Under the pieces are notes generated by a model. The model did no database searches and was not told the origin of the DNA. It was given only the letters and a program-made list of their open reading frames with translations. A program made the translations under genes and the position numbers. From a virus (lineage: Duplodnaviria; Heunggongvirae; Uroviricota; Caudoviricetes), in the IMG/VR virus record IMGVR_UViG_2551306491_000003: a stretch of DNA of 13,759 bases. One strand, given 5' to 3'. This document shows positions 2,302-12,538 of this stretch, in pieces. The stretch's first letter is position 1. The number at the start of each line of letters is the position of its first letter.

Positions 2302-2688
2302 ATGTTTCTGAAACAGGGCACGTTTAATTATGAAAAGCAGTCCGTGGTGCTCAGTGAGCTGTCCGGGCTGCAGAGAATTGAATATCTGGCGTTTGTTCAG
2401 CAGCGAACGGCAAAGTTTGATGCCGAAGAGGGAGAACTGCCGGAGGCTGAACGACAGATTGCTTTTCTGCGGATGGGGATGGATATCAATGCCTGGCTGG
2501 TTTCCCGCTCACTGTGGAATGCGGAACAGTCTCAGGATGTTGAGACGCTTTGCGCATCCGTTATTACAACATGGTCGTATGATGCCCTGGGAGCGGGGGC
2601 GGAGATGGTTCTGTCGCTGAGCGGTATGGGAGCCATTGAGAATGCCGGGGATTTGGAGCATGAGGTGCTGACGCCGGAAAAGTCCTGA
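2302..2688 (+). CDS. G: Tail assembly chaperone G (lambda gpG-like)
   Basis: Begins MFLK as lambda G does, with LSELS.LQRIE motif. RBS ggag 2292..2295. Stop TGA 2686..2688. ATG 2299 is an alternative start; the track start at 2260 is a TTG inside the terminator hairpin. Confidence 0.8.
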   Translation: MFLKQGTFNYEKQSVVLSELSGLQRIEYLAFVQQRTAKFDAEEGELPEAERQIAFLRMGMDINAWLVSRSLWNAEQSQDVETLCASVITTWSYDALGAGAEMVLSLSGMGAIENAGDLEHEVLTPEKS

Positions 2689-3026
2689 CGCGGGAAATGC
2701 AGTTTGTCATGCGGCTTGCCCGGGAGTTCCGGCGGGCAGACTGGCGGCGGATGCTGTCGGAAATGTCGGCCACTGAGCTTGGTGAGTGGGGCGATTATTT
2801 CCGGATGCAGAGCTTCAGTGATGTGTGGATGGATGCGCAGTTTGCCTCGCTGAAGGCATTGATCGTGAGAATGGTGTCCGGTAGCAGTGATGCTGCGGTG
2901 GCTGATTTCAGCCTTTTACCGGAAGAGAACGGGATACCGGAGCGAACGGACGAAGAACTGATGCATCTTGGGGAAGGTATTTCCGGAGGTGTGCGTTATG
3001 GACCAGATAGCCAACCTGGTCATTGA
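2664..3026 (+). CDS. T: T-frame segment of the tail assembly chaperone, expected to be expressed only as a G-T fusion by programmed -1 ribosomal frameshift near 2676..2682
   Basis: The -1 frame relative to G opens after a TGA at 2661..2663 and overlaps the last 25 nt of G. There is no RBS for the first ATG at 2697. Position and size match lambda T. Confidence 0.7.
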   Translation, partial: GADAGKVLTREMQFVMRLAREFRRADWRRMLSEMSATELGEWGDYFRMQSFSDVWMDAQFASLKALIVRMVSGSSDAAVADFSLLPEENGIPERTDEELMHLGEGISGGVRYGPDSQPGH

Positions 3027-6000
3027 TTTGGGGATTGATGCGGCAGAGTTTAAAAATGAAATTCCCCGTATCAAAAACCTTCTGAATGGTGCAGCCAGCG
3101 ATGCAGAACGGTCTTCTGCCCGTATGCAGCGTTTTATGGAGCGTCAGACTCAGGCCGCCCGGCAGACAATGCAGGCGGCTTCTTCGGCTGCAACAGCCGC
3201 ATCCGTCCATGCGCAGACGGTGGAGAAGAGCGCACAGGCTCATGAACGCATGGCCCGCGAGGTGGAGCAAACCCGCCAGCGTATGGAGGCACTGAGCCAG
3301 AAAATGCGCGAGGAACAGGCGCAGGCCATGGCTCTGGCGGAGGCTCAGGATAAAGCGGCTGCTGCGTTTTATCGTCAGATTGACAGTGTGAAACAGGCCG
3401 GTGCGGGGCTGCAGGAATTACAGCGTATTCAGCAACAGATCCGACAGGCCAGAAACAGTGGCGGGATTGGTCAGCAGGATTATCTGGCGCTGATTTCTGA
3501 GGTTACGGCGAAAACCCGTGTTCTTACACAGGCTGAGGAAGAGGCTACCCGACAGAAAGTGGCGTTTATCCGTCAGCTTAAAGAGCAGGCAACCCGCCAG
3601 AATCTTTCTTCTTCTGAGTTGCTTCGTGCTAAGGCTGCCCAGCTGGGGGTAAGCAGTGCTGCAGAAGTGTATATCCGCAAAATGGAGCAGGCAGGAAAAG
3701 CCACGCATTCGCTGGGTCTGAAAAGTGCAGCAGCCCGTCAGGAGATAGGCGTTCTGATAGGTGAACTGGCCCGCGGCAATTTAGGTGCGCTGAGGGGATC
3801 CGGAATAACGCTGGCTAACCGTGCCGGGTGGATAGACACACTGATGTCACCGAAAGGCATGATGCCAGGAGCGGTTATTGGCGGTATTGCCGCGGCTGTC
3901 TATGGTCTGGGTAAAGCCTGGTATGACGGTCAGAAGGAGGGGGAAGAATTTAACCGCCAGCTGTCGCTGACGGGGCATTATGCCGGAGTCACTGCCGGGC
4001 AGCTGTGGACGCTCAGTCGTGCTATTTCCGGGAATGGTATCACGCAACATGCTGCAGCCGGTGCGCTGGCTCAGGTGGTGGGGAGTGGTGCATTTCGTGG
4101 AAACGATATCGGTATGGTGGCGAGAGCTGCCGCACAGATGGAGCGATCGGTTGGCCAGTCGGTCAGCGATACCATAAATCAGTTTAAGCGGCTGAAGGAT
4201 GATCCTGTAAATGCCGCGAAGGCTCTGGACAATGAGCTGCATTTTCTTACTGCCACTCAGCTTGAGCAGATACGCGTCCTTGGGGAGCAGGGGCGGTCCA
4301 GTGATGCTGCACGGATAGCCATGTCTGCACTGGCAGAGGAAACCGGTCGGCGTACTGCGGATATTGATAATAACCTCAATGCGCTTGGCAGTACGCTGAA
4401 GTATCTGTCTGATTTGTGGAGTCGTTTCTGGGATGCGGCCATGAATATTGGTCGTGAAGACTCGCTGGATGAACAGATTGCCGCTTTACAGGAGAAAGTG
4501 TCGCGGGCGAAAAGACTCCCCTGGACGGCATCATCTTCTCAGGTTGAATACGATCAGCAGCGTCTTAACGATCTTCAGGAGAAAAAACGCCAGAAGGATT
4601 TGCAGGATGCAAAAGAGCAGGCAGAGCGGAATTATCAGGAGCAACAGAAACGCCGTAATGCTGAAAATGCTGCACTGAACCGGATGAATGAAACGGAAGC
4701 AGCACGACATCAGCGTGAAATAGCGCGTATTAATGCCATGCAGTACGCCGATCAGGCTGTCAGGGATGCGGCGATACAACGTGAAAATGAACGTTACGAG
4801 AAAGCCCTGGCATCCGGTAAGAAAAAAACACGCGAAACCCGTAATGATGAGGCCACCCGGTTATTGCTGCAGTACAGTCAGCAACAGGCACAGGTGGAAG
4901 GACAGATTGCTGCTGCCAGACAGTCAGCAGGCATTGCCACGGAAAGGATGACAGAAGCGCGTAAACAGCTTCTGGCTCTGCAGCAGCGCATCAGCGACCT
5001 GGACGGGAAAAAACTGACGGCAGATGAAAAGAGTGTGCTGGCCCGTAAAGATGAACTGATTCAGGCACTGACGCTGCTGGATGTAAAACAGCAGGAGCTT
5101 CAGAAACAGACGGCACTCAACGAGCTGAAGAAAAAAACAATTCAGCTGACCAGTCAACTGGCTGAAGAAGAGCGCGCTCAGCGTCAGCAACATGACCTGG
5201 ATATCGCCACGGTGGGTATGGGTGATCAGCAGCGACAGCGATATCAGGTACAACTGAGTCTTCGCCAGAAATACCAGCAACAGCTGGAGCAGTTGAGGCG
5301 GGATAGTGAGCAGAAAGGGACATATAACACGGATGACTACAGAAAGGCCGAGCAGGCGCTGACGGAGAGCCTGAACCGACAACTGAATGAGAATCGCCGT
5401 TACTGGCAACAGCTTGAAGTTGTACAGGGTAACTGGAAAAACGGAGTCCTGCGTGCATTTCAGGATTTTACCGTGGATGCAGATAATACGGCAGAAACAG
5501 CAGAACAGGTGTTCTCGTCAGCCTTCAGCAACATGGGAAATGGCCTGGCAACTTTTGTCACTACCGGCAAACTCAATTTCAAATCCTTCACCTCTTCTGT
5601 GCTGTCAGATATGGCGAAAATCCTGGCGCAGGCAACCATGATGAAATCGATAAAAGGGATTGGCAGTGTACTGGGATTTGATCTCAGCAGCCTTTCCCTG
5701 AATGCCAATGGGGGGATTTATCAGTCTGCTGATTTGAGTCGTTACAGTGGCACGGTGGTTAACCGTCCGACGTTTTTTGCTTTTGCAAAAGGCGCGGGTG
5801 TGATGGGGGAAGCGGGACCTGAAGCCATTCTGCCATTGCGTCGTGGTGCTGACGGTAAGCTGGGGGTTGTGGCGGATATTGGGGGTTCAGGTATGGCGAT
5901 GTTTTCCCCGCAGTACAACATCGAGATCAATAACGATGGCACGAACGGGCAGATAGGTCCGGCTGCCCTGAAGGCGGTTTATGACCTCGGGAAAAAAGCG

Positions 6001-6063
6001 GCAGCGGACTTTATGCAACAGCAGGCCCGTGATGGTGGTCGGTTAAGTGGAGCATATCGGTAA
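2998..6063 (+). CDS. H: Tail tape measure protein H (lambda gpH-like), 1021 aa
   Basis: RBS ggagg 2985..2989 then ATG 2998. N-terminus MDQIANLVIDLGIDAAEF resembles lambda H MAEPVGDLVVDLSLDAARF; C-terminus contains INNDGTNGQIGPAALKAVYD and DGG as in lambda H. Long Q/E/R/K/A-rich central coiled-coil region. The track ORF start 2968 is TTG. Confidence 0.9.
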   Translation: MDQIANLVIDLGIDAAEFKNEIPRIKNLLNGAASDAERSSARMQRFMERQTQAARQTMQAASSAATAASVHAQTVEKSAQAHERMAREVEQTRQRMEALSQKMREEQAQAMALAEAQDKAAAAFYRQIDSVKQAGAGLQELQRIQQQIRQARNSGGIGQQDYLALISEVTAKTRVLTQAEEEATRQKVAFIRQLKEQATRQNLSSSELLRAKAAQLGVSSAAEVYIRKMEQAGKATHSLGLKSAAARQEIGVLIGELARGNLGALRGSGITLANRAGWIDTLMSPKGMMPGAVIGGIAAAVYGLGKAWYDGQKEGEEFNRQLSLTGHYAGVTAGQLWTLSRAISGNGITQHAAAGALAQVVGSGAFRGNDIGMVARAAAQMERSVGQSVSDTINQFKRLKDDPVNAAKALDNELHFLTATQLEQIRVLGEQGRSSDAARIAMSALAEETGRRTADIDNNLNALGSTLKYLSDLWSRFWDAAMNIGREDSLDEQIAALQEKVSRAKRLPWTASSSQVEYDQQRLNDLQEKKRQKDLQDAKEQAERNYQEQQKRRNAENAALNRMNETEAARHQREIARINAMQYADQAVRDAAIQRENERYEKALASGKKKTRETRNDEATRLLLQYSQQQAQVEGQIAAARQSAGIATERMTEARKQLLALQQRISDLDGKKLTADEKSVLARKDELIQALTLLDVKQQELQKQTALNELKKKTIQLTSQLAEEERAQRQQHDLDIATVGMGDQQRQRYQVQLSLRQKYQQQLEQLRRDSEQKGTYNTDDYRKAEQALTESLNRQLNENRRYWQQLEVVQGNWKNGVLRAFQDFTVDADNTAETAEQVFSSAFSNMGNGLATFVTTGKLNFKSFTSSVLSDMAKILAQATMMKSIKGIGSVLGFDLSSLSLNANGGIYQSADLSRYSGTVVNRPTFFAFAKGAGVMGEAGPEAILPLRRGADGKLGVVADIGGSGMAMFSPQYNIEINNDGTNGQIGPAALKAVYDLGKKAAADFMQQQARDGGRLSGAYR

Positions 6064-6392
6064 TGGAGACGTTTCACTGGAAAGTGCGCCCGGATATGAA
6101 TGTGGTATCAGAGCCGAAAGTGGTGACAGTGAAGCTGGGCGATGGTTATGAACAGCGTCGTGCGGCGGGACTGAATAACCAGTTGTCGACTTACAGCGTG
6201 ACGATACGTGTTCGTAAATGTGAACACCCATCTTTAAAAGCCTTTCTGGAACGGCACGGTGGCGTCCGTGCATTTCAGTGGACGCCACCTTATGACTGGA
6301 AACCGATCAGGGTGGTTTGTCGTAAATGGTCGGCAAGCGTGGGGGCGCTGTGGGTAACCATAACGGCAGATTTTGAACAGGTCGTGGCATAG
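6063..6392 (+). CDS. M: Tail tip assembly protein M (lambda gpM-like), 109 aa
   Basis: TAATG overlap with the H stop. Same length as lambda M, with motifs FHWKV, GDGYEQR, TYSVT, WTPPYDW, AEFEQVV-like. Confidence 0.85.
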   Translation: METFHWKVRPDMNVVSEPKVVTVKLGDGYEQRRAAGLNNQLSTYSVTIRVRKCEHPSLKAFLERHGGVRAFQWTPPYDWKPIRVVCRKWSASVGALWVTITADFEQVVA

Positions 6393-6401
6393 GAGGCTCT
6401 G

Positions 6402-7100
6402 ATGCAGGATATTCCACAGGAAACACATCATGAGACGACACGCCTCACTCAGTCAGCCCAGGCGGTGCTCTGGGAAATCGATCTGACAGAGGTCGGTGGT
6501 GAACGTTATTTTTTCTGTAATGAGCAGAACGAAAAAGGTGAGCCGGTTACCTGGCAGGGGCGGCAGTATCAGGCATACCCCATTCAGGGGACGGGATTTG
6601 AACTGAACGGCAAGGGCAGTTCTGCCCGTCCGACACTGACGGTTTCTAACCTGCACGGCATGGTCACGGGGATGGCGGAAGACCTGCAGAGTCTGGTCGG
6701 CGGAACGGTGGTCCGGCGTAAGGTTTACGCCCGTTTTCTGGATGCGGTGAACTTCGTCAACGGAAACAGCGACGCCGATCCGGAGCAGGAGGTGATCAGC
6801 CGCTGGCGCATTGAGCAGTGCAGCGAACTGAGCGCGGTGAGTGCCTCTTTTGTACTGTCCACGCCGACGGAAACGGACGGCGCTGTTTTTCCGGGACGTA
6901 TCATGCTGGCCAACACCTGCACCTGGACCTATCGCGGCGATGAGTGCGGTTATCACGGTCCGGCGGTCGCGGATGAATATGACCAGCCAACGTCCGATAT
7001 CACGAAGGATAAATGCAGCAAATGCCTGAGCGGTTGTAAGTTCCGCAATAACGTCGGCAACTTTGGCGGCTTCCTTTCCATTAACAAACTTTCGCAGTAA
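6402..7100 (+). CDS. L: Tail tip protein L (lambda gpL-like), 232 aa, with C-terminal four-cysteine cluster
   Basis: RBS aggagg 6391..6396. Same length as lambda L. Cysteine codons at 6918, 7015, 7024, 7035 (C-x..-C-x2-C-x3-C). Confidence 0.85.
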   Translation: MQDIPQETHHETTRLTQSAQAVLWEIDLTEVGGERYFFCNEQNEKGEPVTWQGRQYQAYPIQGTGFELNGKGSSARPTLTVSNLHGMVTGMAEDLQSLVGGTVVRRKVYARFLDAVNFVNGNSDADPEQEVISRWRIEQCSELSAVSASFVLSTPTETDGAVFPGRIMLANTCTWTYRGDECGYHGPAVADEYDQPTSDITKDKCSKCLSGCKFRNNVGNFGGFLSINKLSQ

Positions 7101-7105
7101 ATCCC

Positions 7106-7849
7106 ATGACACAGACAGAATCAGCGATTCTGGCGCACGCCCGGCGATGTGCGCCAGCGGAGTCGTGCGGCTTCGTGGTAAGCACGCCGGAGGGGGAAAG
7201 ATATTTCCCCTGCGTGAATATCTCCGGTGAGCCGGAGGCGTATTTCCGTATGTCGCCGGAAGACTGGCTGCAGGCAGAAATGCAGGGTGAGATTGTGGCG
7301 CTGGTCCACAGCCACCCCGGTGGTCTGCCCTGGCTGAGTGAGGCCGACCGGCGGCTGCAGGTGCAGAGTGATTTGCCGTGGTGGCTGGTCTGCCGGGGGA
7401 CGATTCATAAGTTCCGCTGTGTGCCGCATCTCACCGGGCGGCGCTTTGAGCACGGGGTGACGGACTGTTACACGCTGTTCCGGGATGCTTATCATCTGGC
7501 GGGGATTGAGATGCCGGATTTTCATCGCGAGGATGACTGGTGGCGTCACGGTCAGAATCTCTATCTGGATAATCTGGAGGCCACAGGGCTGTATCAGGTG
7601 CCGTTGTCATCAGCACAACCGGGCGATGTGCTGCTGTGCTGTTTTGGTTCATCGGTGCCGAATCATGCCGCCATTTACTGTGGTGATGGCGAGCTGCTGC
7701 ACCATATTCCTGAACAACTGAGCAAACGAGAGAGGTATACCGACAAATGGCAGCGACGCACACACTCCCTCTGGCGTCACCGGGCATGGCGCGCATCTGC
7801 CTTTACGGGGATTTGCAACGATTTGGCCGCCGCATCGACCTTCGTGTAA
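7106..7849 (+). CDS. K: Tail tip assembly protein K (lambda gpK-like), 247 aa from first ATG: N-terminal JAB/MPN (JAMM) metallopeptidase domain plus C-terminal NlpC/P60 domain
   Basis: JAMM motif H-S-H-x7-S-x2-D (HSHPGGLPWLSEAD) at 7307..7348. NlpC/P60-type Cys (VTDCYTL) and downstream His residues (NHAAIY, LHHIPE). An internal ATG at 7250 (Met49) corresponds to the 199-aa lambda annotation. Confidence 0.8.
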   Translation: MTQTESAILAHARRCAPAESCGFVVSTPEGERYFPCVNISGEPEAYFRMSPEDWLQAEMQGEIVALVHSHPGGLPWLSEADRRLQVQSDLPWWLVCRGTIHKFRCVPHLTGRRFEHGVTDCYTLFRDAYHLAGIEMPDFHREDDWWRHGQNLYLDNLEATGLYQVPLSSAQPGDVLLCCFGSSVPNHAAIYCGDGELLHHIPEQLSKRERYTDKWQRRTHSLWRHRAWRASAFTGICNDLAAASTFV

Positions 7850-8394
7850 AAACGGGGGCCGAAGCCATCCGGGCGCTGGCCATGCAGATCCCGGCGTTTC
7901 GTCAGAAGCTGAGCGACGGCTGGTATCTGGTACGGATTGCCGGGCGTGATACAGGTGAAAATGAATTATCTGCCCGTCTTAATGAGCCGCTGGCAAATGG
8001 TGCCGTGATCCACATCGTGCCGCGCCTGGCGGGTGCTAAAAGTGGCGGTGTGTTTCAGGCAGTGCTGGGTGCGGCGCTGATTGCGGTGGCATGGTGGAAC
8101 CCTGTGGGCTGGCTGGGGGCCGCGGCTGTATCGGGTATGTATGCAGCAGGGGCCAGTATGATCCTGGGTGGTGTGGCGCAGATGCTGGCACCGAAAGCCA
8201 GAACTCCCCGTACACAGACAACGGATAACGGCAAACAAAACACCTATTTCTCCTCACTGGATAACATGGTTGCCCAGGGCAATGTTCTGCCCGTTCTGTA
8301 CGGTGAAATGCGCGTGGGATCACGTGTGGTTTCTCAGGAGATCAGCACGGCAGACGAAGGGGACGGTGGTCAGGTTGTGGTGATTGGTCGCTGA
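7747..8394 (+). CDS. I: Tail tip assembly protein I (lambda gpI-like), 215 aa; N-terminal domain ending in Gly-Gly followed by a hydrophobic C-terminal region
   Basis: Starts 103 nt inside the 3' end of K in a different frame, the same overlap length as the lambda K/I pair as I recall it. C-terminus YFSSLDNMVAQGNVLPVLYGEMRVGSRVVSQEI is lambda I-like. Alternative start ATG 7786. Confidence 0.8.
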   Translation: MAATHTLPLASPGMARICLYGDLQRFGRRIDLRVKTGAEAIRALAMQIPAFRQKLSDGWYLVRIAGRDTGENELSARLNEPLANGAVIHIVPRLAGAKSGGVFQAVLGAALIAVAWWNPVGWLGAAAVSGMYAAGASMILGGVAQMLAPKARTPRTQTTDNGKQNTYFSSLDNMVAQGNVLPVLYGEMRVGSRVVSQEISTADEGDGGQVVVIGR

Positions 8395-8412
8395 TGCAAA
8401 ATGTTTTATGTG

Positions 8413-8433
8413 AAACCGCCTCCGGGCGGTTTT
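8413..8433 (+). terminator. Terminator-like hairpin in the I-J intergenic region
   Basis: aaaccgcc-tccg-ggcggttt (GC core 5 bp, extendable with A-T pairs) followed by tgtcgttt. Confidence 0.45.
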
Positions 8434-8454
8434 GTCGTTTATGGAGCATGACGA

Positions 8455-11400
8455 ATGGGTAAAGGAAGCAGTAAGGGGCATACCCCGCGCGAAGCGAAGG
8501 ACAACCTGAAGTCCACGCAGCTGCTGAGTGTGATCGATGCCATCAGCGAAGGACCGATTGAAGGTCCGGTGGATGGATTAAAAAGCGTGCTGCTGAACAG
8601 TACGCCGGTGCTGGACAGTGAAGGTAATACCAACATCTCCGGTGTCACGGTGGTGTTCCGGGCCGGTGAGCAGGAGCAGACACCGCCGGAGGGATTTGAA
8701 TCCTCCGGTTCTGAGACGGTGCTGGGTACGGAAGTGAAATACGACACGCCGATCACCCGCACCATCACGTCGGCAAACATCGATCGTCTGCGCTTTACTT
8801 TCGGTGTGCAGGCACTGCGGGAAACCACCTCAAAGGGGGACCGGAATCCGTCGGAAGTCCGCCTGCTGGTTCAGATACAGCGTAATGGTGGCTGGGTGAC
8901 GGAAAAAGACATCACCATTAAGGGCAAAACCACGTCGCAGTATCTGGCCTCGGTGGTGGTGGATAACCTGCCGCCGCGCCCGTTTAATATCCGGATGCGC
9001 AGGATGACGCCGGACAGCACCACAGACCAGCTGCAGAACAAAACGCTCTGGTCGTCATACACCGAAATCATCGATGTGAAACAGTGCTACCCGAACACGG
9101 CACTGGTTGGCGTGCAGGTGGACTCGGAGCAGTTTGGCAGTCAGCAGGTGAGCCGTAATTATCATCTTCGCGGGCGCATTCTGCAGGTGCCGTCAAACTA
9201 TGATCCGGAAAAACGCACTTACAGCGGCATCTGGGACGGAACGTTAAAACCGGCATACAGCAACAACATGGCCTGGTGTCTGTGGGATATGCTGACCCAC
9301 CCGCGCTACGGCATGGGGAAACGTCTTGGTGCGGCGGATGTGGATAAATGGGCGCTGTATGTCATCGGCCAGTACTGCGACCAGTCAGTACCGGACGGCT
9401 TTGGCGGCACGGAGCCGCGCATCACCTGTAATGCGTACCTGACCACGCAGCGCAAGGCGTGGGATGTGCTCAGTGATTTCTGCTCGGCGATGCGCTGTAT
9501 GCCGGTATGGAACGGGCAGACGCTGACGTTCGTGCAGGACCGGCCGTCGGATAAGGTGTGGACCTATAACCGCAGTAATGTGGTGATGCCGGATGATGGC
9601 GCGCCGTTCCGCTACAGCTTTAGCGCCCTGAAAGACCGCCATAATGCCGTTGAGGTGAACTGGACTGACCCGGACAACGGCTGGGAGACGGCGACAGAGC
9701 TTGTGGAGGACACGCAGGCCATTGCCCGTTACGGTCGTAACGTCACGAAGATGGATGCCTTTGGCTGTACCAGTCGGGGGCAGGCACACCGTGCCGGGCT
9801 GTGGCTGATTAAAACGGAACTGCTGGAAACGCAGACCGTGGACTTCAGCGTGGGCGCAGAAGGGCTTCGCCATGTACCGGGCGATGTCATTGAAATCTGT
9901 GATGATGACTATGCGGGGATCAGCATCGGTGGGCGTGTGCTGGCGGTGAACAGCCAGACCCGGACGCTGACGCTCGACCGTGAAATCACGCTGCCATCCT
10001 CCGGCACCACGCTGATAAGCCTGGTTGACGGAAGTGGCAATCCGGTCAGCGTGGAGGTTCAGTCCGTCACCGACGGCGTGAAGGTAAAAGTGAGCCGGGT
10101 TCCTGACGGTGTTGCTGAATACAGCGTGTGGGGGCTGAAGCTGCCGACGCTGCGCCAGCGCCTGTTCCGCTGCGTGAGTATCCGTGAGAACGACGACGGC
10201 ACGTATGCCATCACTGCCGTGCAGCATGTGCCGGAGAAAGAGGGCATCGTGGATAACGGGGCGCACTTTGACGGTGACCAGAGCAGCACGGTGAATGGTG
10301 TCACGCCGCCAGCGGTGCAGCACCTGACCGCCGAAGTCTCCGCAGACAGCGGGGAATATCAGGTGCTGGCGCGATGGGACACGCCGAAGGTGGTGAAGGG
10401 TGTGAGCTTCCTGCTTCGCCTGACCGTGGCAGCGGATGACGGCAGTGAGCGGCTGGTCAGCACGGCCCGGACGACGGAAACCACATACCGCTTCACGCAG
10501 CTGGCGCTGGGGAACTACAGGCTGACAGTCCGGGCGGTAAATGCGTGGGGACAGCAGGGCGATCCGGCGTCGGTATCGTTCCGGATTGCCGCACCGGCAG
10601 CGCCGTCACAGATTGAGCTGACACCGGGCTATTTTCAGATAACCGCCACGCCGCATCTTGCGGTTTATGATCCGACGGTACAGTTTGAGTTCTGGTTCTC
10701 GGAAACGCGGATTGCGGATATCAGGCAGGTTGAAACCAGCGCGCGTTATCTTGGTACGGCGCTGTACTGGATAGCCGCCAGTATCAATATCAAACCGGGC
10801 CATGATTATTACTTTTATATCCGCAGTGTGAACACCGTTGGCAAATCGGCATTCGTGGAGGCCGTCGGTCGGGCGAGCGATGATGCGGAAGGTTATCTGG
10901 ATTTTTTCAAAGGCAAGATAACCGAATCTCATCTCGGCAAGGAGCTGCTGGAAAAAGTCGATCTGACGGAGGATAACGCCAGCAGACTGGATGAGTTTTC
11001 GAAAGAGTGGAAGGACGCTAACGATAAATGGAATGCCATGTGGGGCGTCAAAATTGAGCAGACCAAAGACGGCAAACATTATGTCGCGGGTATTGGCCTC
11101 AGCATGGAGGACACGGAGGAAGGCAAGCTGAGCCAGTTTCTGGTTGCCGCCAATCGTATCGCGTTTATTGACCCGGCAAACGGGAATGAAACGCCGATGT
11201 TTGTGGCGCAGGGCAACCAGATATTCATGAACGACGTGTTCCTGAAGCGCCTGACGGCCCCCACCATTACCAGCGGTGGAAATCCACCGGTATTTTCCCT
11301 GACATCAGACGGAAAGCTGACCGCTAAAAATGCGGATATCAGTGGCAGTGTGAATGCGAACTCCGGGACGCTCAACAACGTCACGGTAAATGAAAACTGT

Positions 11401-11868
11401 ACGATTAAGGGCATGCTGGAGGCGACTCAGGTCAGAGGTGACTTCGTTAAAGCTGTATCCAAATCATTTCCGAAACAGGCTGGTACGTGGGGTAACACGG
11501 AAACACCAAACGGGACGGTTACAGTCACCATCAGCGATGATCATAACTTTGACCGTCAAATCATTATTCCGCCCATTATCTTTAACGGAATAGCGTATAG
11601 CGATCCGGGAAGTGGTAATAACCCGGGAGGTACAAGATACACGGGTTATGGTTTTGAAGTTCGCAAAAACGGTGTATTAATCGCATCCAGAGAAACTAAA
11701 GGGGCCATTCCCGGTAGCTACAGTGCGGTTATTGATATGCCGAGTGGCAGGGGAAGCGTCACTCTGGAGTTTAAGGTTTTCCATAAAGGCAATCAGCGGG
11801 CAGGTAATATCACCGACTGTACGGTGATTGTGACCAAAAAAGCGGCTTCCGGCATCAGTATCCGTTGA
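8455..11868 (+). CDS. J: Central tail fibre / host specificity protein J (lambda gpJ-like), 1137 aa
   Basis: RBS ggag 8443..8446 then ATG 8455. Size close to lambda J (1132 aa) and next in the conserved order. The C-terminal about 250 aa would be the receptor-binding region. Confidence 0.9.
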
Positions 11869-11938: not shown

Positions 11939-12538
11939 ATGCGTAAAGTTTGTGCAGCAATTTTGTCCGCAGCCATTTGTCTGGCCGTATCCGGTGTGCC
12001 TGCATGGGCGTCTGAGCATCAGTCCACGCTGAGCGCAGGATATCTTCATGCCAGTACGGACGCTCCCGGCAGCGATGATCTGAACGGGATTAACGTGAAA
12101 TACCGTTATGAGTTTACGGACACACTGGGGCTGATTACGTCCTTCAGTTATGCCAACGCCGAAGATGAGCAAAAAACGCATTACAGCGATACCCGCTGGC
12201 ATGAGGATTACGTGCGTAACCGCTGGTTCAGCGTGATGGCAGGGCCGTCTGTGCGTGTGAATGAATGGTTCAGTGCGTATGCGATGGCGGGTGTGGCTTA
12301 CAGCCGTGTGTCGACTTTTTCCGGGGATTATTTCCGCGTAACTGACAACAAGAGGAAAACGCACGACGTGCTGACCGGAAGTGATGACGCTCGCTACAGC
12401 AACACATCTCTGGCGTGGGGGGCTGGCGTGCAGTTTAACCCGACCGAATCAGTGGCCGTTGATGTCGCTTATGAAGGCTCCGGCAGCGGTGACTGGCGCA
12501 CTGACGGTTTCATCGTGGGTGTCGGTTATAAATTTTGA
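11939..12538 (+). CDS. lom: Outer membrane beta-barrel protein Lom (Ail/Lom/PagC family), 199 aa with signal peptide
   Basis: RBS gggagg 11928..11933. N-terminal signal peptide MRKVCAAILSAAICLAVSGVPAWA. Aromatic-rich beta-strand pattern ending in terminal Phe (GVGYKF), typical of outer-membrane barrels. Sits between J and stf as lom does in lambda. Confidence 0.85.
   Translation: MRKVCAAILSAAICLAVSGVPAWASEHQSTLSAGYLHASTDAPGSDDLNGINVKYRYEFTDTLGLITSFSYANAEDEQKTHYSDTRWHEDYVRNRWFSVMAGPSVRVNEWFSAYAMAGVAYSRVSTFSGDYFRVTDNKRKTHDVLTGSDDARYSNTSLAWGAGVQFNPTESVAVDVAYEGSGSGDWRTDGFIVGVGYKF

What the first reader, a model, noticed from the sequence alone, without database searches (positions are those of the whole stretch)
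7106..8394. K/I pair: 103-nt out-of-frame overlap, intact JAMM and NlpC/P60 motifs in K, and a Gly-Gly-terminated N-terminal domain in I
K carries a complete JAMM motif (HSHPGGLPWLSEAD, 7307..7348) plus an NlpC/P60-type Cys/His set. I starts 103 nt before the K stop in another frame, and its N-terminal about 100 residues end in ...RLAGAKSGG (Gly-Gly codons 8044..8049) followed by a hydrophobic, membrane-like C-terminal half. This fits the published proposal (Iyer, Burroughs and Aravind) that gpK is a JAB peptidase acting on a ubiquitin-like domain of gpI; here the implied cleavage site after Gly-Gly is preserved. The long overlap means two proteins are encoded by the same DNA at 7747..7849.
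Basis: partly seen in the sequence, partly recalled or inferred. Interest (0 to 1): 0.5.

Follow-up and report, generated by a model that had tools for sequence, protein, structure and literature searches.

The report
Lambda-type K/I tail-tip gene pair
This is the well-known K and I tail-tip assembly gene pair of a lambda-like phage (a double peptidase followed by a plug protein with a ubiquitin-like head), so the finding is real but already described, and whether K cuts I is still untested.

Summary
All coordinates in the finding check out. K (7106-7849) has an intact JAMM motif and an NlpC/P60 Cys/His set. I (7747-8394) starts 103 nt before the K stop, in the -1 frame. Gly100-Gly101 sit at 8044-8049. 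The window is a lambdoid tail operon, 96% identical to phages Ayreon and mEp460, and the 103-nt overlap is the one annotated in phage lambda. AlphaFold2 plus Foldseek confirm that I residues 14-96 form a MoaD/SAMP-like beta-grasp and that K's N-terminus resembles JAMM deubiquitinases.

Three corrections apply:
- **Conserved glycine.** Gly-Gly is not the conserved element. Across the family P92, G96 and A/S97 are near-invariant, G100 is 64% conserved, and the pyocin homologue PA0640 has no GG. G96-A97 aligns with the MoaD diglycine.
- **Hydrophobic region.** Only residues 102-149 are hydrophobic. Residues 150-215 are the polar plug seen in lambda cryo-EM structures.
- **The overlap.** The long overlap is specific to the lambda lineage (4-20 nt or none elsewhere), and only the I frame is constrained within it.

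Cleavage of I by K remains the 2006 Iyer-Burroughs-Aravind hypothesis. Loss of the N-terminal domain is supported in F-pyocin, but the protease is unidentified. Verdict: already known, low to moderate interest.

The parts
7106..7849 (+). Gene K: tail-tip assembly protein, 247 aa, JAB + NlpC/P60 peptidase. Not a virion component in lambda or F-pyocin.
   Evidence: ORF; Pfam; PHROG 30 'minor tail protein' E=5e-164; lambda virion mass spectrometry lacks gpK (PMC10721106). The ATG lies 5 nt after the L stop (7098-7100) and has no Shine-Dalgarno sequence.
7112..7417 (+). JAB/JAMM metallopeptidase domain of K (residues 3-104). Catalytic residues: E19 (7160-7162), H68/H70 (7307-7315), S78 (7337-7339), D81 (7346-7348).
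   Evidence: Pfam PF14464 E=6e-14. Motif invariant in 14 diverse phage K proteins. AF2 pLDDT about 90. Foldseek top hits 5lda_A PfJAMM1, Rpn11, CSN5, AMSH, probability 1.0.
7436..7777 (+). NlpC/P60 (C40) papain-like peptidase domain of K (residues 111-224). C121 (7466-7468), H187 (7664-7666), H199/H200 (7700-7705).
   Evidence: Pfam PF00877 E=5.5e-13. D-C, N-H and H-H motifs conserved in 14 phage K proteins. Only moderate AF2 confidence, pLDDT 57-73.
7778..7849 (+). C-terminal run-on tail of K (residues 225-247 plus stop), lying over the start of the I beta-grasp. Weakly constrained or unconstrained in the K frame.
   Evidence: In 52 close relatives, 9 of the 10 variable sites in 7786-7846 are I-frame third positions and all 10 change the K protein. 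Binomial P=3.6e-4.
7728..7736 (+). Shine-Dalgarno-like GAGAGAGGT, 10 nt upstream of the I ATG.
   Evidence: Duplex with the anti-SD -8.5 kcal/mol, against -2.5 for the ATG at 7786. The surrounding RNA is less structured than all 200 shuffles, z=+2.4.
7747..8394 (+). Gene I: tail-tip protein, 215 aa, made of leader + beta-grasp + hydrophobic linker + plug domain.
   Evidence: ORF; Pfam PF06805; E=4.6e-108 to lambda gpI in PDB 8iyk/8iyl/8k35/8xcg/9e7m.
7747..7849 (+). K/I overlap, 103 nt, with I in the -1 frame relative to K.
   Evidence: Same 103 nt in the lambda reference, Gifsy-1 and phage 2851. 58 nt in Pasteurella Pmp14, and 4-20 nt or none in 13 other phages.
7747..7785 (+). I residues 1-13 (MAATHTLPLASPG): a lineage-specific N-terminal leader, poorly conserved. 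In this stretch the K frame is the constrained one.
   Evidence: Most distant homologues start at the M14 equivalent. Against Gifsy-1 and phage 2851 there are 4-6/13 I-frame changes and 1/13 K-frame changes. Phage 2851 has CTG at codon 14, so it must initiate at M1.
7786..8037 (+). Ubiquitin-like (MoaD/ThiS/SAMP-type) beta-grasp domain of I, residues 14-97, ending in the conserved G96-A97 (8032-8037).
   Evidence: AF2 pLDDT 84-92, strand/helix order b-b-a-b-b-(a)-b. Foldseek hits 3po0 SAMP1, 1fm0_D MoaD, Urm1, SUMO, Ub; probability 1.0, TM (target) 0.70-0.73. G96 98% and A/S97 97% conserved. hhalign places G96 on MoaD G80.
8044..8049 (+). Gly100-Gly101, in the flexible tail after the beta-grasp.
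   Evidence: Present here. pLDDT <50 for residues 97-102. G100 64%, G101 88%, GG in 66/94 homologues. Absent in PA0640.
8050..8193 (+). Charge-free Gly/Ala-rich hydrophobic segment (residues 102-149). Corresponds to helices H1/H2 of lambda gpI, which are predicted to be transmembrane.
   Evidence: Hydropathy and composition. Invariant G108, G135, G142. PMC11101478 and PMC10721106 describe this part in lambda.
8194..8391 (+). Polar C-terminal plug/beta-strand domain (residues 150-215). In lambda it forms the trimeric plug in the tip lumen and holds the C-terminus of gpH.
   Evidence: 94-100% identical to the resolved part of lambda gpI, 9e7m chains and 8iyk. PMC10721106, PMC12617516, PMC11101478.

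Best explanation
The region is the K-I gene pair of the tail-tip assembly block (H-M-L-K-I-J-lom) of a lambda-like phage or prophage.

K is a non-structural assembly factor. It has two intact peptidase domains: an N-terminal JAB/JAMM metalloprotease and a C-terminal NlpC/P60 cysteine peptidase.

I is made as a precursor with four parts: a short leader, a MoaD/ubiquitin-like beta-grasp domain (residues 14-97), a flexible Gly-rich tail, a hydrophobic two-helix segment, and a polar plug domain.

Shown in lambda and in F-pyocin: only the part from about residue 101-135 onward is seen in the finished tail tip. There, three copies plug the lumen and hold the end of the tape-measure protein.

Inferred: the beta-grasp domain acts as a removable assembly module (a steric shield or intramolecular chaperone). 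It is cut off during tip maturation, most likely by the JAB domain of K, in the flexible tail between G96 and V102. By analogy with archaeal JAMM1/SAMP and Mec+/CysO, the conserved G96-A/S97 is the positional equivalent of the Ubl diglycine.

The 103-nt overlap arises because the K reading frame runs on past its catalytic domain into the start of I. I initiates at the ATG at 7747, from its own Shine-Dalgarno sequence in an unstructured stretch of mRNA. The overlap is an arrangement specific to the lambda lineage and is not part of the mechanism.
For: Identity: 96% DNA identity to lambdoid phages; Pfam and PHROG assignments; E=4.6e-108 to lambda gpI; the same 103-nt overlap as annotated in lambda.

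Enzyme: the complete JAMM and C40 catalytic sets are conserved across 14 diverse phage K proteins. The JAB model matches PfJAMM1 (solved with SAMP2), Rpn11 and CSN5.

Substrate: I residues 11-96 model confidently as a beta-grasp whose top hits are SAMP1, MoaD and Urm1. The tail at residues 97-102 is disordered. G96-[A/S]97 is near-invariant and aligns with the MoaD G80-G81 position.

Functional link: K and I are adjacent in most phages examined. K-I and JAB-I fusion families exist (PHROG 28576 and 35166; PMC1779556).

Loss of the N-terminal domain: lambda structures resolve gpI only from residue 101 or 134/135 onward (PMC11101478, PMC10721106, PMC12617516). Lambda virion mass spectrometry found a single gpI peptide covering 9.87% = 22 residues, which fits only the C-terminal tryptic peptide (my inference). 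The N-terminus of F-pyocin PA0640 is absent from mature particles but present in stalled tip precursors. Deleting the K homologue PA0639 gives tip-less tubes (preprint 10.64898/2026.02.24.707460).

Start and overlap: the Shine-Dalgarno sequence scores -8.5 kcal/mol at 7747 against -2.5 at 7786. The RNA there is open. Phage 2851 has CTG at codon 14. Substitutions in 7786-7849 are synonymous in the I frame.
Against: No experiment shows that K cleaves I.

In F-pyocin the PA0640 N-terminus persists in stalled precursors, where the K homologue is presumably present. Recombinant PA0640 also loses its N-terminus in E. coli without its K partner. A host protease, or a trigger other than K, is therefore possible.

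JAMM enzymes characterised so far cut after Gly-Gly, whereas the conserved dipeptide here is Gly-Ala/Ser.

An AF2 model of a natural K-I fusion (P0408) did not order the tail: pLDDT was below 50 from fusion residue 307 and pTM was 0.40. This gives no computational support for docking, and no coordinates were available to inspect.

The sequence profile of the I domain alone does not reach MoaD or ThiS in the PDB. The hhalign match has only 21% probability.

The role of the second peptidase domain (NlpC/P60) is unexplained.
Confidence: 0.55

Rival explanations
1. K does not process I. The beta-grasp domain of I is removed by host or other proteases, or simply stays attached and disordered. K's peptidase domains would then act on another substrate (for example the unexplained gpH to gpH* cleavage, or peptidoglycan), or K acts only as a chaperone.
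For: PA0640 expressed alone in E. coli loses its N-terminal region, and the PA0640 N-terminus survives in stalled tip precursors. The protease for gpH processing is unknown (PMC12617516). NCBI annotates K as a 'C40 family peptidase'. The fusion model showed no docking of the I tail onto K.
Against: K is absent from virions, so it cannot act on the cell wall at infection (PMC10721106). The pairing of a JAB domain with a Ubl carrying a conserved C-terminal Gly, plus K-I fusions, recurs across lambdoid and T1-like phages (PMC1779556). Both partners most resemble a known enzyme-substrate pair, JAMM1-SAMP.
Confidence: 0.3
2. I is really translated from the ATG at 7786 (Met14). The true overlap would then be 64 nt, and codons 1-13 are not made.
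For: Most distant homologues start at the Met14 equivalent. The Pfam domain starts at residue 14. Many PGAP annotations are 200-202 aa. Residues 2-13 are poorly conserved, while the K frame is conserved there. In Pasteurella Pmp14 the I frame has a stop codon just upstream of this Met.
Against: There is almost no Shine-Dalgarno sequence before 7786 (-2.5 kcal/mol), against -8.5 before 7747. Phage 2851 has CTG at codon 14 but keeps the upstream ATG and its Shine-Dalgarno sequence. The RNA around 7747 is unusually open.
Confidence: 0.15
3. I starts at codon 34 (GTG in lambda, GTA here), giving a 4-nt overlap. Some records annotate it this way (PV340536; the 190-aa gpI used in PMC7291167). In that case no real dual coding exists.
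For: Annotation in PV340536.1. A 190-residue gpI is used in PMC7291167.
Against: In this window codon 34 is GTA, which is not a start codon. Residues 14-33 carry family-wide conserved positions (G21, L23, G27) and form the first two strands of the beta-grasp. Substitutions in 7786-7849 are synonymous in the I frame, P=3.6e-4.
Confidence: 0.02
4. The overlap serves programmed -1 frameshifting, which would produce a K-I fusion protein in the way G-T is produced upstream.
For: I is in the -1 frame relative to K. K-I fusion proteins are present in databases.
Against: There is no X XXY YYZ slippery heptamer in the K frame anywhere in 7700-7850. The fusion proteins recovered are singletons with different junctions, as expected from indels or sequencing errors. 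The long overlap is absent from most of the family.
Confidence: 0.03

Closest known systems
Phage lambda gpK / gpI (TAPK/TAPI of Iyer, Burroughs and Aravind 2006, PMC1779556)
   Same: Same genes, same order (L-K-I-J) and same 103-nt overlap. I is identical to lambda gpI over residues 1-45 and the tail AGAKSGGVFQ, and nearly identical over the resolved plug domain. The domain architecture is the same: JAB+NlpC/P60 and Ubl+linker+C-domain.
   Different: I is 215 aa here against 223 aa in lambda, the difference being indels in the hydrophobic linker. The K ORF is the full 247 aa here, whereas the lambda reference annotates 199 aa. That shorter form results from a missing base in the 1982 sequence, a base that resequenced lambda genomes contain.
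Pseudomonas aeruginosa F-pyocin PA0639 / PA0640 (preprint 10.64898/2026.02.24.707460; PDB 25vf)
   Same: PA0640 is a gpI homologue (E=1e-20) with the same layout, and only residues 127-200 are seen in the particle. Its N-terminal domain is removed on maturation. The K homologue PA0639 is non-structural and required for tip formation.
   Different: PA0640 has GSKQSG, not GAKSGG, after the beta-grasp, so no Gly-Gly. It is a tailocin rather than a phage. The protease is unidentified there too.
Archaeal/bacterial JAMM-Ubl pairs (P. furiosus JAMM1-SAMP2, 5lda; H. volcanii HvJAMM1-SAMP1, PMC4443979; Mec+/CysO, from my own knowledge)
   Same: A stand-alone prokaryotic JAB domain with E...HxH...S..D, acting on a MoaD-like beta-grasp that carries a C-terminal glycine. 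These are the best structural matches of both partners.
   Different: Those enzymes cut after a terminal Gly-Gly of a free or conjugated small modifier. Here the Ubl is the N-terminal domain of a structural precursor, the conserved dipeptide is Gly-Ala/Ser, no E1-like partner exists, and the JAB is fused to a second (C40) peptidase.
Phage T5 pb3 plug domain
   Same: It occupies the same position in the tail-tip lumen as the gpI C-terminal tripod and closes the tube (PMC10721106).
   Different: In T5 the plug is an insertion inside the hub protein. It is not a separate gene product and has no Ubl domain or dedicated peptidase.

Membership tests
JAB/JAMM (MPN+) metallopeptidases | E-x(n)-H-x-H-x7-S-x2-D zinc-binding/catalytic motif | tested here: met
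   E19, H68, H70, S78 and D81 are present with exact spacing and invariant in 14 diverse phage K proteins.
JAB/JAMM (MPN+) metallopeptidases | MPN fold / profile match | tested here: met
   Pfam PF14464 at 52.3 bits against a cut-off of 25. AF2 pLDDT about 90. Foldseek hits PfJAMM1, Rpn11, CSN5 and AMSH with probability 1.0. 2kks E=1.3e-5 by sequence.
JAB/JAMM (MPN+) metallopeptidases | Zn-dependent (iso)peptidase activity on a Ubl C-terminus | not testable with these tools
   Needs biochemistry. No report was found in the searched literature.
NlpC/P60 (C40) papain-like peptidases | Catalytic Cys at a helix N-terminus, plus His and a third polar residue (His) | tested here: met
   C121 (DCYTLF), H187 (NHAAIY) and H199/H200 (LHH) are conserved in 14 phage K proteins.
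NlpC/P60 (C40) papain-like peptidases | Profile/fold match | tested here: met
   Pfam PF00877 at 49.2 bits against a cut-off of 23, covering the whole profile 1-105. The AF2 model of this domain is only moderate (pLDDT 57-73), and no C40 structure appeared in the top 50 Foldseek hits.
Lambda_tail_I / TAPI family | Profile match, and position between K and J in a siphophage tail-tip block | tested here: met
   PF06805 at 79.6 bits against a cut-off of 23.8. PHROG 32 'tail assembly protein' E=1e-83. Gene order L-K-I-J.
ThiS/MoaD/ubiquitin-like beta-grasp domains | beta-grasp fold (b-b-a-b-b-b around one helix) | tested here: met
   AF2 residues 11-96 have pLDDT 84-92. All top Foldseek PDB hits are Ubls: SAMP1 3po0 at E=1.3e-3, MoaD 1fm0_D at TM (target) 0.73, then Urm1, SUMO, Ub and ThiS.
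ThiS/MoaD/ubiquitin-like beta-grasp domains | C-terminal Gly-Gly directly after the last strand | tested here: inconclusive
   The position equivalent to MoaD G80-G81 is G96-A97 (low probability of 21%). G96 is 98% conserved, but the second residue is Ala or Ser. A true GG lies 3 residues further on (100-101) and is kept in only about two-thirds of homologues.
ThiS/MoaD/ubiquitin-like beta-grasp domains | Detectable sequence homology to ThiS/MoaD | tested here: inconclusive
   A family profile against PDB sequences found only gpI homologues at E<=10. Iyer et al. report PSI-BLAST links at e=1e-3 (PMC1779556).
Functionally dual-coding (overprinted) gene overlap | Purifying selection detectable in both reading frames of the shared DNA | tested here: not met
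   In 7786-7849 variation is confined to I-frame third positions and always changes K (P=3.6e-4). In 7747-7785 the K frame is conserved and the I frame is not. Each half therefore has one dominant frame.

The most novel reading that the evidence does not exclude
K's JAB domain would be a viral ubiquitin-like-protein protease that removes the beta-grasp domain of I as an assembly checkpoint. It would cut at the family-invariant Gly96-Ala/Ser97, not at a Gly-Gly. That is a JAMM specificity not yet described, and it would experimentally confirm a 20-year-old prediction of a ubiquitin-like/deubiquitinase-like pair inside a phage morphogenesis pathway.
Probability: 0.3. Interest if true: 0.55.

Novelty: already known. 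Interest (0 to 1): 0.25.

Why it matters
The K/I pair is one of the few parts of lambda tail assembly still without a mechanism. gpK's role is unknown. The N-terminal 100 residues of gpI have never been seen in a structure. The protease that removes the equivalent domain in F-pyocin is unidentified. If K's JAB domain is that protease, it would be a minimal prokaryotic-virus counterpart of the ubiquitin/deubiquitinase relationship, and a proteolytic checkpoint that licenses tip-to-tube joining.

This window adds nothing qualitatively new to that question, because it is an ordinary lambdoid copy of the genes. The work here has three practical results:
- The conserved glycine is G96, not the GG pair, which matters for designing cleavage-site mutants.
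- The long overlap is a lineage-specific accident and not a mechanism.
- The 199-aa K of the lambda reference, which lacks the JAMM glutamate, results from a missing base in that sequence.

Tried and rejected
- **The search for related loci with a 43-sequence family alignment.** It failed because no sufficiently conserved 7-10 column stretch existed. I used tblastn on annotated phages instead.
- **Profile of the I beta-grasp against PDB sequences.** It did not reach MoaD, ThiS or Ub. Only fold comparison did.
- **AF2 of a natural K-I fusion (P0408), as a stand-in for complex prediction.** The first alignment misplaced the K homologues and was rebuilt. The model gave good JAB and Ubl domains, but the tail was disordered and pTM was 0.40. 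It is uninformative about docking, and coordinates and PAE are not available.
- **Programmed frameshift idea.** Rejected because there is no slippery heptamer.
- **K-I fusion proteins in the databases.** I judged them indel or sequencing artefacts, since they are singletons with differing junctions.
- **Literature search for 'gpK/gpI/JAMM'.** It returned only noise.
- **Extra constraint on the invariant stretch 7742-7780.** I considered whether it shows added dual-coding or RBS constraint, but there are too few sites to test (0 of about 11 K third positions against 4 of about 16 upstream).
- **Lambda virion mass spectrometry.** It gives only one gpI peptide, too little to prove that the N-terminus is absent.
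Full report
**What the window is.** The ORF map and Pfam scan show a lambda-type tail operon: H (2968-6063), M (6063-6392, Phage_min_tail), L (6402-7100, Phage_tail_L), K (7106-7849), I (7747-8394), J (8455-11868) and lom (11939-12538). Region 6000-8500 is 96% identical to the lambdoid phages Ayreon, mEp460 and cdtI, and 268 phage records match it.

**Checking the observation.** Every coordinate is correct.
- K is 247 aa. HSHPGGLPWLSEAD is residues 68-81 (7307-7348), an exact HxH-x7-S-x2-D.
- The JAMM glutamate is E19, in PAESCG.
- The C40 residues are C121, H187 and H199/H200.
- I begins at 7747 in the -1 frame, 103 nt before the K stop. G100-G101 are 8044-8049.
- Pfam gives Prok-JAB (residues 3-104, E=6e-14), NLPC_P60 (residues 111-224, E=5.5e-13) and Lambda_tail_I (I residues 14-97, E=2e-22), all above the curated thresholds.
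- The same 103-nt overlap is annotated in the lambda reference (K 14276..14875, I 14773..15444), in Gifsy-1 and in phage 2851.
- One correction: I is not hydrophobic over its whole C-terminal half. Residues 102-149 are a charge-free Gly/Ala-rich segment, and residues 150-215 are polar.

**The two proteins.** An AlphaFold2 model of I, built on a 94-sequence alignment, is confident only for residues 11-96 (pLDDT 84-92). The element order there is b-b-a-b-b-(a)-b. Residues 97-102 fall below pLDDT 50. In the PDB the model's top hits are SAMP1 (3po0), MoaD (1fm0_D, 6jbz_B), Urm1, SUMO, ubiquitin and ThiS, with probability 1.0 and TM 0.70-0.73 on the target.

A model that includes K has a JAB domain at pLDDT about 90. 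Its best matches are P. furiosus JAMM1 (solved in complex with SAMP2), Rpn11, CSN5 and AMSH. The C40 domain is modelled only moderately well.

In 14 K proteins from diverse phages, both catalytic sets are invariant. The hosts are Escherichia, Klebsiella, Pasteurella, Moraxella, Serratia, Stenotrophomonas, Rhizobium and Acinetobacter. This argues that both activities are under selection.

**What is known about gpI and gpK.** Lambda cryo-EM structures contain gpI (PDB 8iyk, 8iyl, 8k35, 8xcg, 9e7m). Three copies sit in the tip lumen, hold the C-terminal helix of gpH and plug the tube. Residues 135-223 (PMC10721106), 134-222 (PMC12617516) or '101 onward' (PMC11101478) are resolved, and the N-terminal domain is never seen.

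gpK is not detected in virions. Lambda virion mass spectrometry found one gpI peptide covering 9.87%, which equals 22 residues. Only the C-terminal tryptic peptide has that length (my inference).

A 2026 preprint on F-pyocin reports the following:
- The N-terminus of the gpI homologue PA0640 is missing from mature particles but present in stalled tip precursors.
- PA0640 alone loses this region in E. coli.
- Deleting the gpK homologue PA0639 gives tip-less tubes.
- The cleavage mechanism is 'to be elucidated'.

Removal of the domain is thus supported, but the protease is not identified.

**The Gly-Gly.** I examined 150 representatives of clusters at 50% identity and a 94-sequence alignment. 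P92 and G108 are invariant in both alignments. G21, G135, G142, N173 and G186 are invariant in the first and at least 90% conserved in the second; G178 and G191 are the reverse. In the 94-sequence alignment the frequencies are G96 98%, A/S97 97%, G100 64% and G101 88%. A GG occurs in 66 of 94 tails.

PA0640 reads IVPLVIGSKQSGLFQ, with no GG. hhalign of the domain profile against E. coli MoaD aligns ...PLANGAVIHIVPRLAG with ...PLTDGDEVAFFPPVTG. The MoaD sequence was confirmed identical to 1fm0_D. This places G96 on MoaD G80 and A97 on the terminal G81 (local match, probability only 21%).

The family-conserved counterpart of the Ubl diglycine is therefore G96-[A/S]97. The GG at 100-101 is a common but dispensable feature of the flexible tail. 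If the lambda model truly starts at residue 101 (PMC11101478), cleavage after G101 is unlikely and a site at or before residue 100 fits better.

**The overlap.** In 52 close relatives, the sites that vary in 7786-7846 are almost all I-frame third positions (9 of 10; P=3.6e-4) and all change the K protein. Upstream of 7742 variation sits at K third positions. Compared with Gifsy-1 and phage 2851, codons 1-13 of I change at 4-6 of 13 residues, while the K frame there changes at 1 of 13. Each half of the overlap thus has one dominant frame. K's catalytic domain ends near residue 224 (7777), and the I beta-grasp begins at Met14 (7786). K residues 225-247 and I residues 1-13 are weakly constrained passengers.

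The long overlap is confined to one lineage:

| Phage(s) | K/I overlap |
|---|---|
| lambda, Gifsy-1, phage 2851 | 103 nt |
| Pasteurella Pmp14 | 58 nt |
| egaa | 20 nt |
| VLCpiS8a | 19 nt |
| Acba_16 | 17 nt |
| HK578 | 10 nt |
| BUCT805, SBP3.1phi2.1, B1VFA, Tls | 8 nt |
| BrunoManser | 4 nt |
| PHB10, HK542 (extra gene and terminator between), Mcat28 (two opposite-strand genes between), D14P | none |
| Vibrio P3 | no K gene annotated upstream of I |

**The start of I.** Public records use three starts: Met1, Met14 (PGAP, 200-202 aa) and codon 34 (PV340536; the 190-aa gpI in PMC7291167).

Codon 34 is GTA here and would delete two conserved strands, so it is rejected. Between Met1 and Met14, four observations bear on the choice:
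- The Shine-Dalgarno match is -8.5 kcal/mol (GAGAGAGGT, 10 nt spacing) before 7747, against -2.5 before 7786.
- The RNA around 7747 is less structured than all 200 shuffles.
- Phage 2851 has CTG at codon 14 but keeps the upstream ATG.
- Most distant homologues begin at the Met14 equivalent.

I favour Met1 for this lineage, with residues 1-13 as a dispensable leader. Either way at least 64 nt are shared with K.

**Frameshift rival.** I lies in the -1 frame relative to K, and K-I fusion proteins exist in databases. However, there is no slippery heptamer in the overlap, and the fusions are singletons with different junctions.

**Mechanism and confidence.** Identity of the genes is near certain. 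It is well supported that the Ubl domain is absent from the mature tip. That K's JAB domain is the protease is a reasonable but unproven inference, which I put at about 0.5. The site is probably between G96 and V102. The role of the C40 domain is unexplained.

**Verdict.** The feature is already known: lambda K/I and the 2006 Ubl/JAB hypothesis. Interest is low to moderate.

Noticed in passing
window 7234-7246 (GGAGGCGTATTTC); lambda NC_001416 ~14255-14262 (L001 1257-1275): The lambda reference (J02459/NC_001416) lacks one base that is present here (G7240). The base is also present in Gifsy-1, phage 2851, 30 IMG/VR loci and independently sequenced lambda genomes (PV340536, LC730321 at 48,503 bp, KT232076, DE3, imm21, imm434). 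The missing base breaks the K frame, which explains the reference's 199-aa 'K' starting at Met49 and lacking the JAMM glutamate. PV340536 annotates K at 247 aa. This is most likely an error in the 1982 sequence.
   Followed up: yes
window 7228-7252: The internal ATG at 7250 (K Met49) is preceded by a strong GGAGG (-9.5 kcal/mol, 10 nt). The full-length K start at 7106 has no Shine-Dalgarno sequence and sits 5 nt after the L stop. A shorter K isoform lacking the start of the JAB domain is conceivable but untested.
   Followed up: partly
window 7747, 7786, 7846: Public records use three different starts for gene I: Met1, Met14 and codon 34. These give 223/215-, 200-202- and 190-aa proteins and K/I overlaps of 103, 64 or 4 nt. 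The 190-aa version has been used in a published TMHMM/HHpred analysis (PMC7291167).
   Followed up: yes
window 2668-2700: The G/T junction reads CTG ACG CCG GAA AAG TCC TGA. The lambda-type slippery heptamer GGGAAAG is absent here and occurs only at 7194, inside K. If G-T is still made by a -1 shift, it would have to use a different site such as A AAG.
   Followed up: no
PHROG 28576 and 35166; P0408, P0394, P0458: Profiles and proteins spanning both K and I exist (K-I and JAB-I fusions). Those retrieved here look like frameshift artefacts within the overlap, but the PHROG families suggest that some fusions may be genuine, as Iyer et al. also noted.
   Followed up: partly
L088 (HK542) 915-1177; L090 (Mcat28) 779-1401: In HK97-like phages a small extra gene and a rho-independent terminator sit between K and I. 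In Moraxella phage Mcat28 two opposite-strand genes do. The K-I junction is therefore a tolerated insertion site (a moron site) outside the lambda lineage.
   Followed up: no
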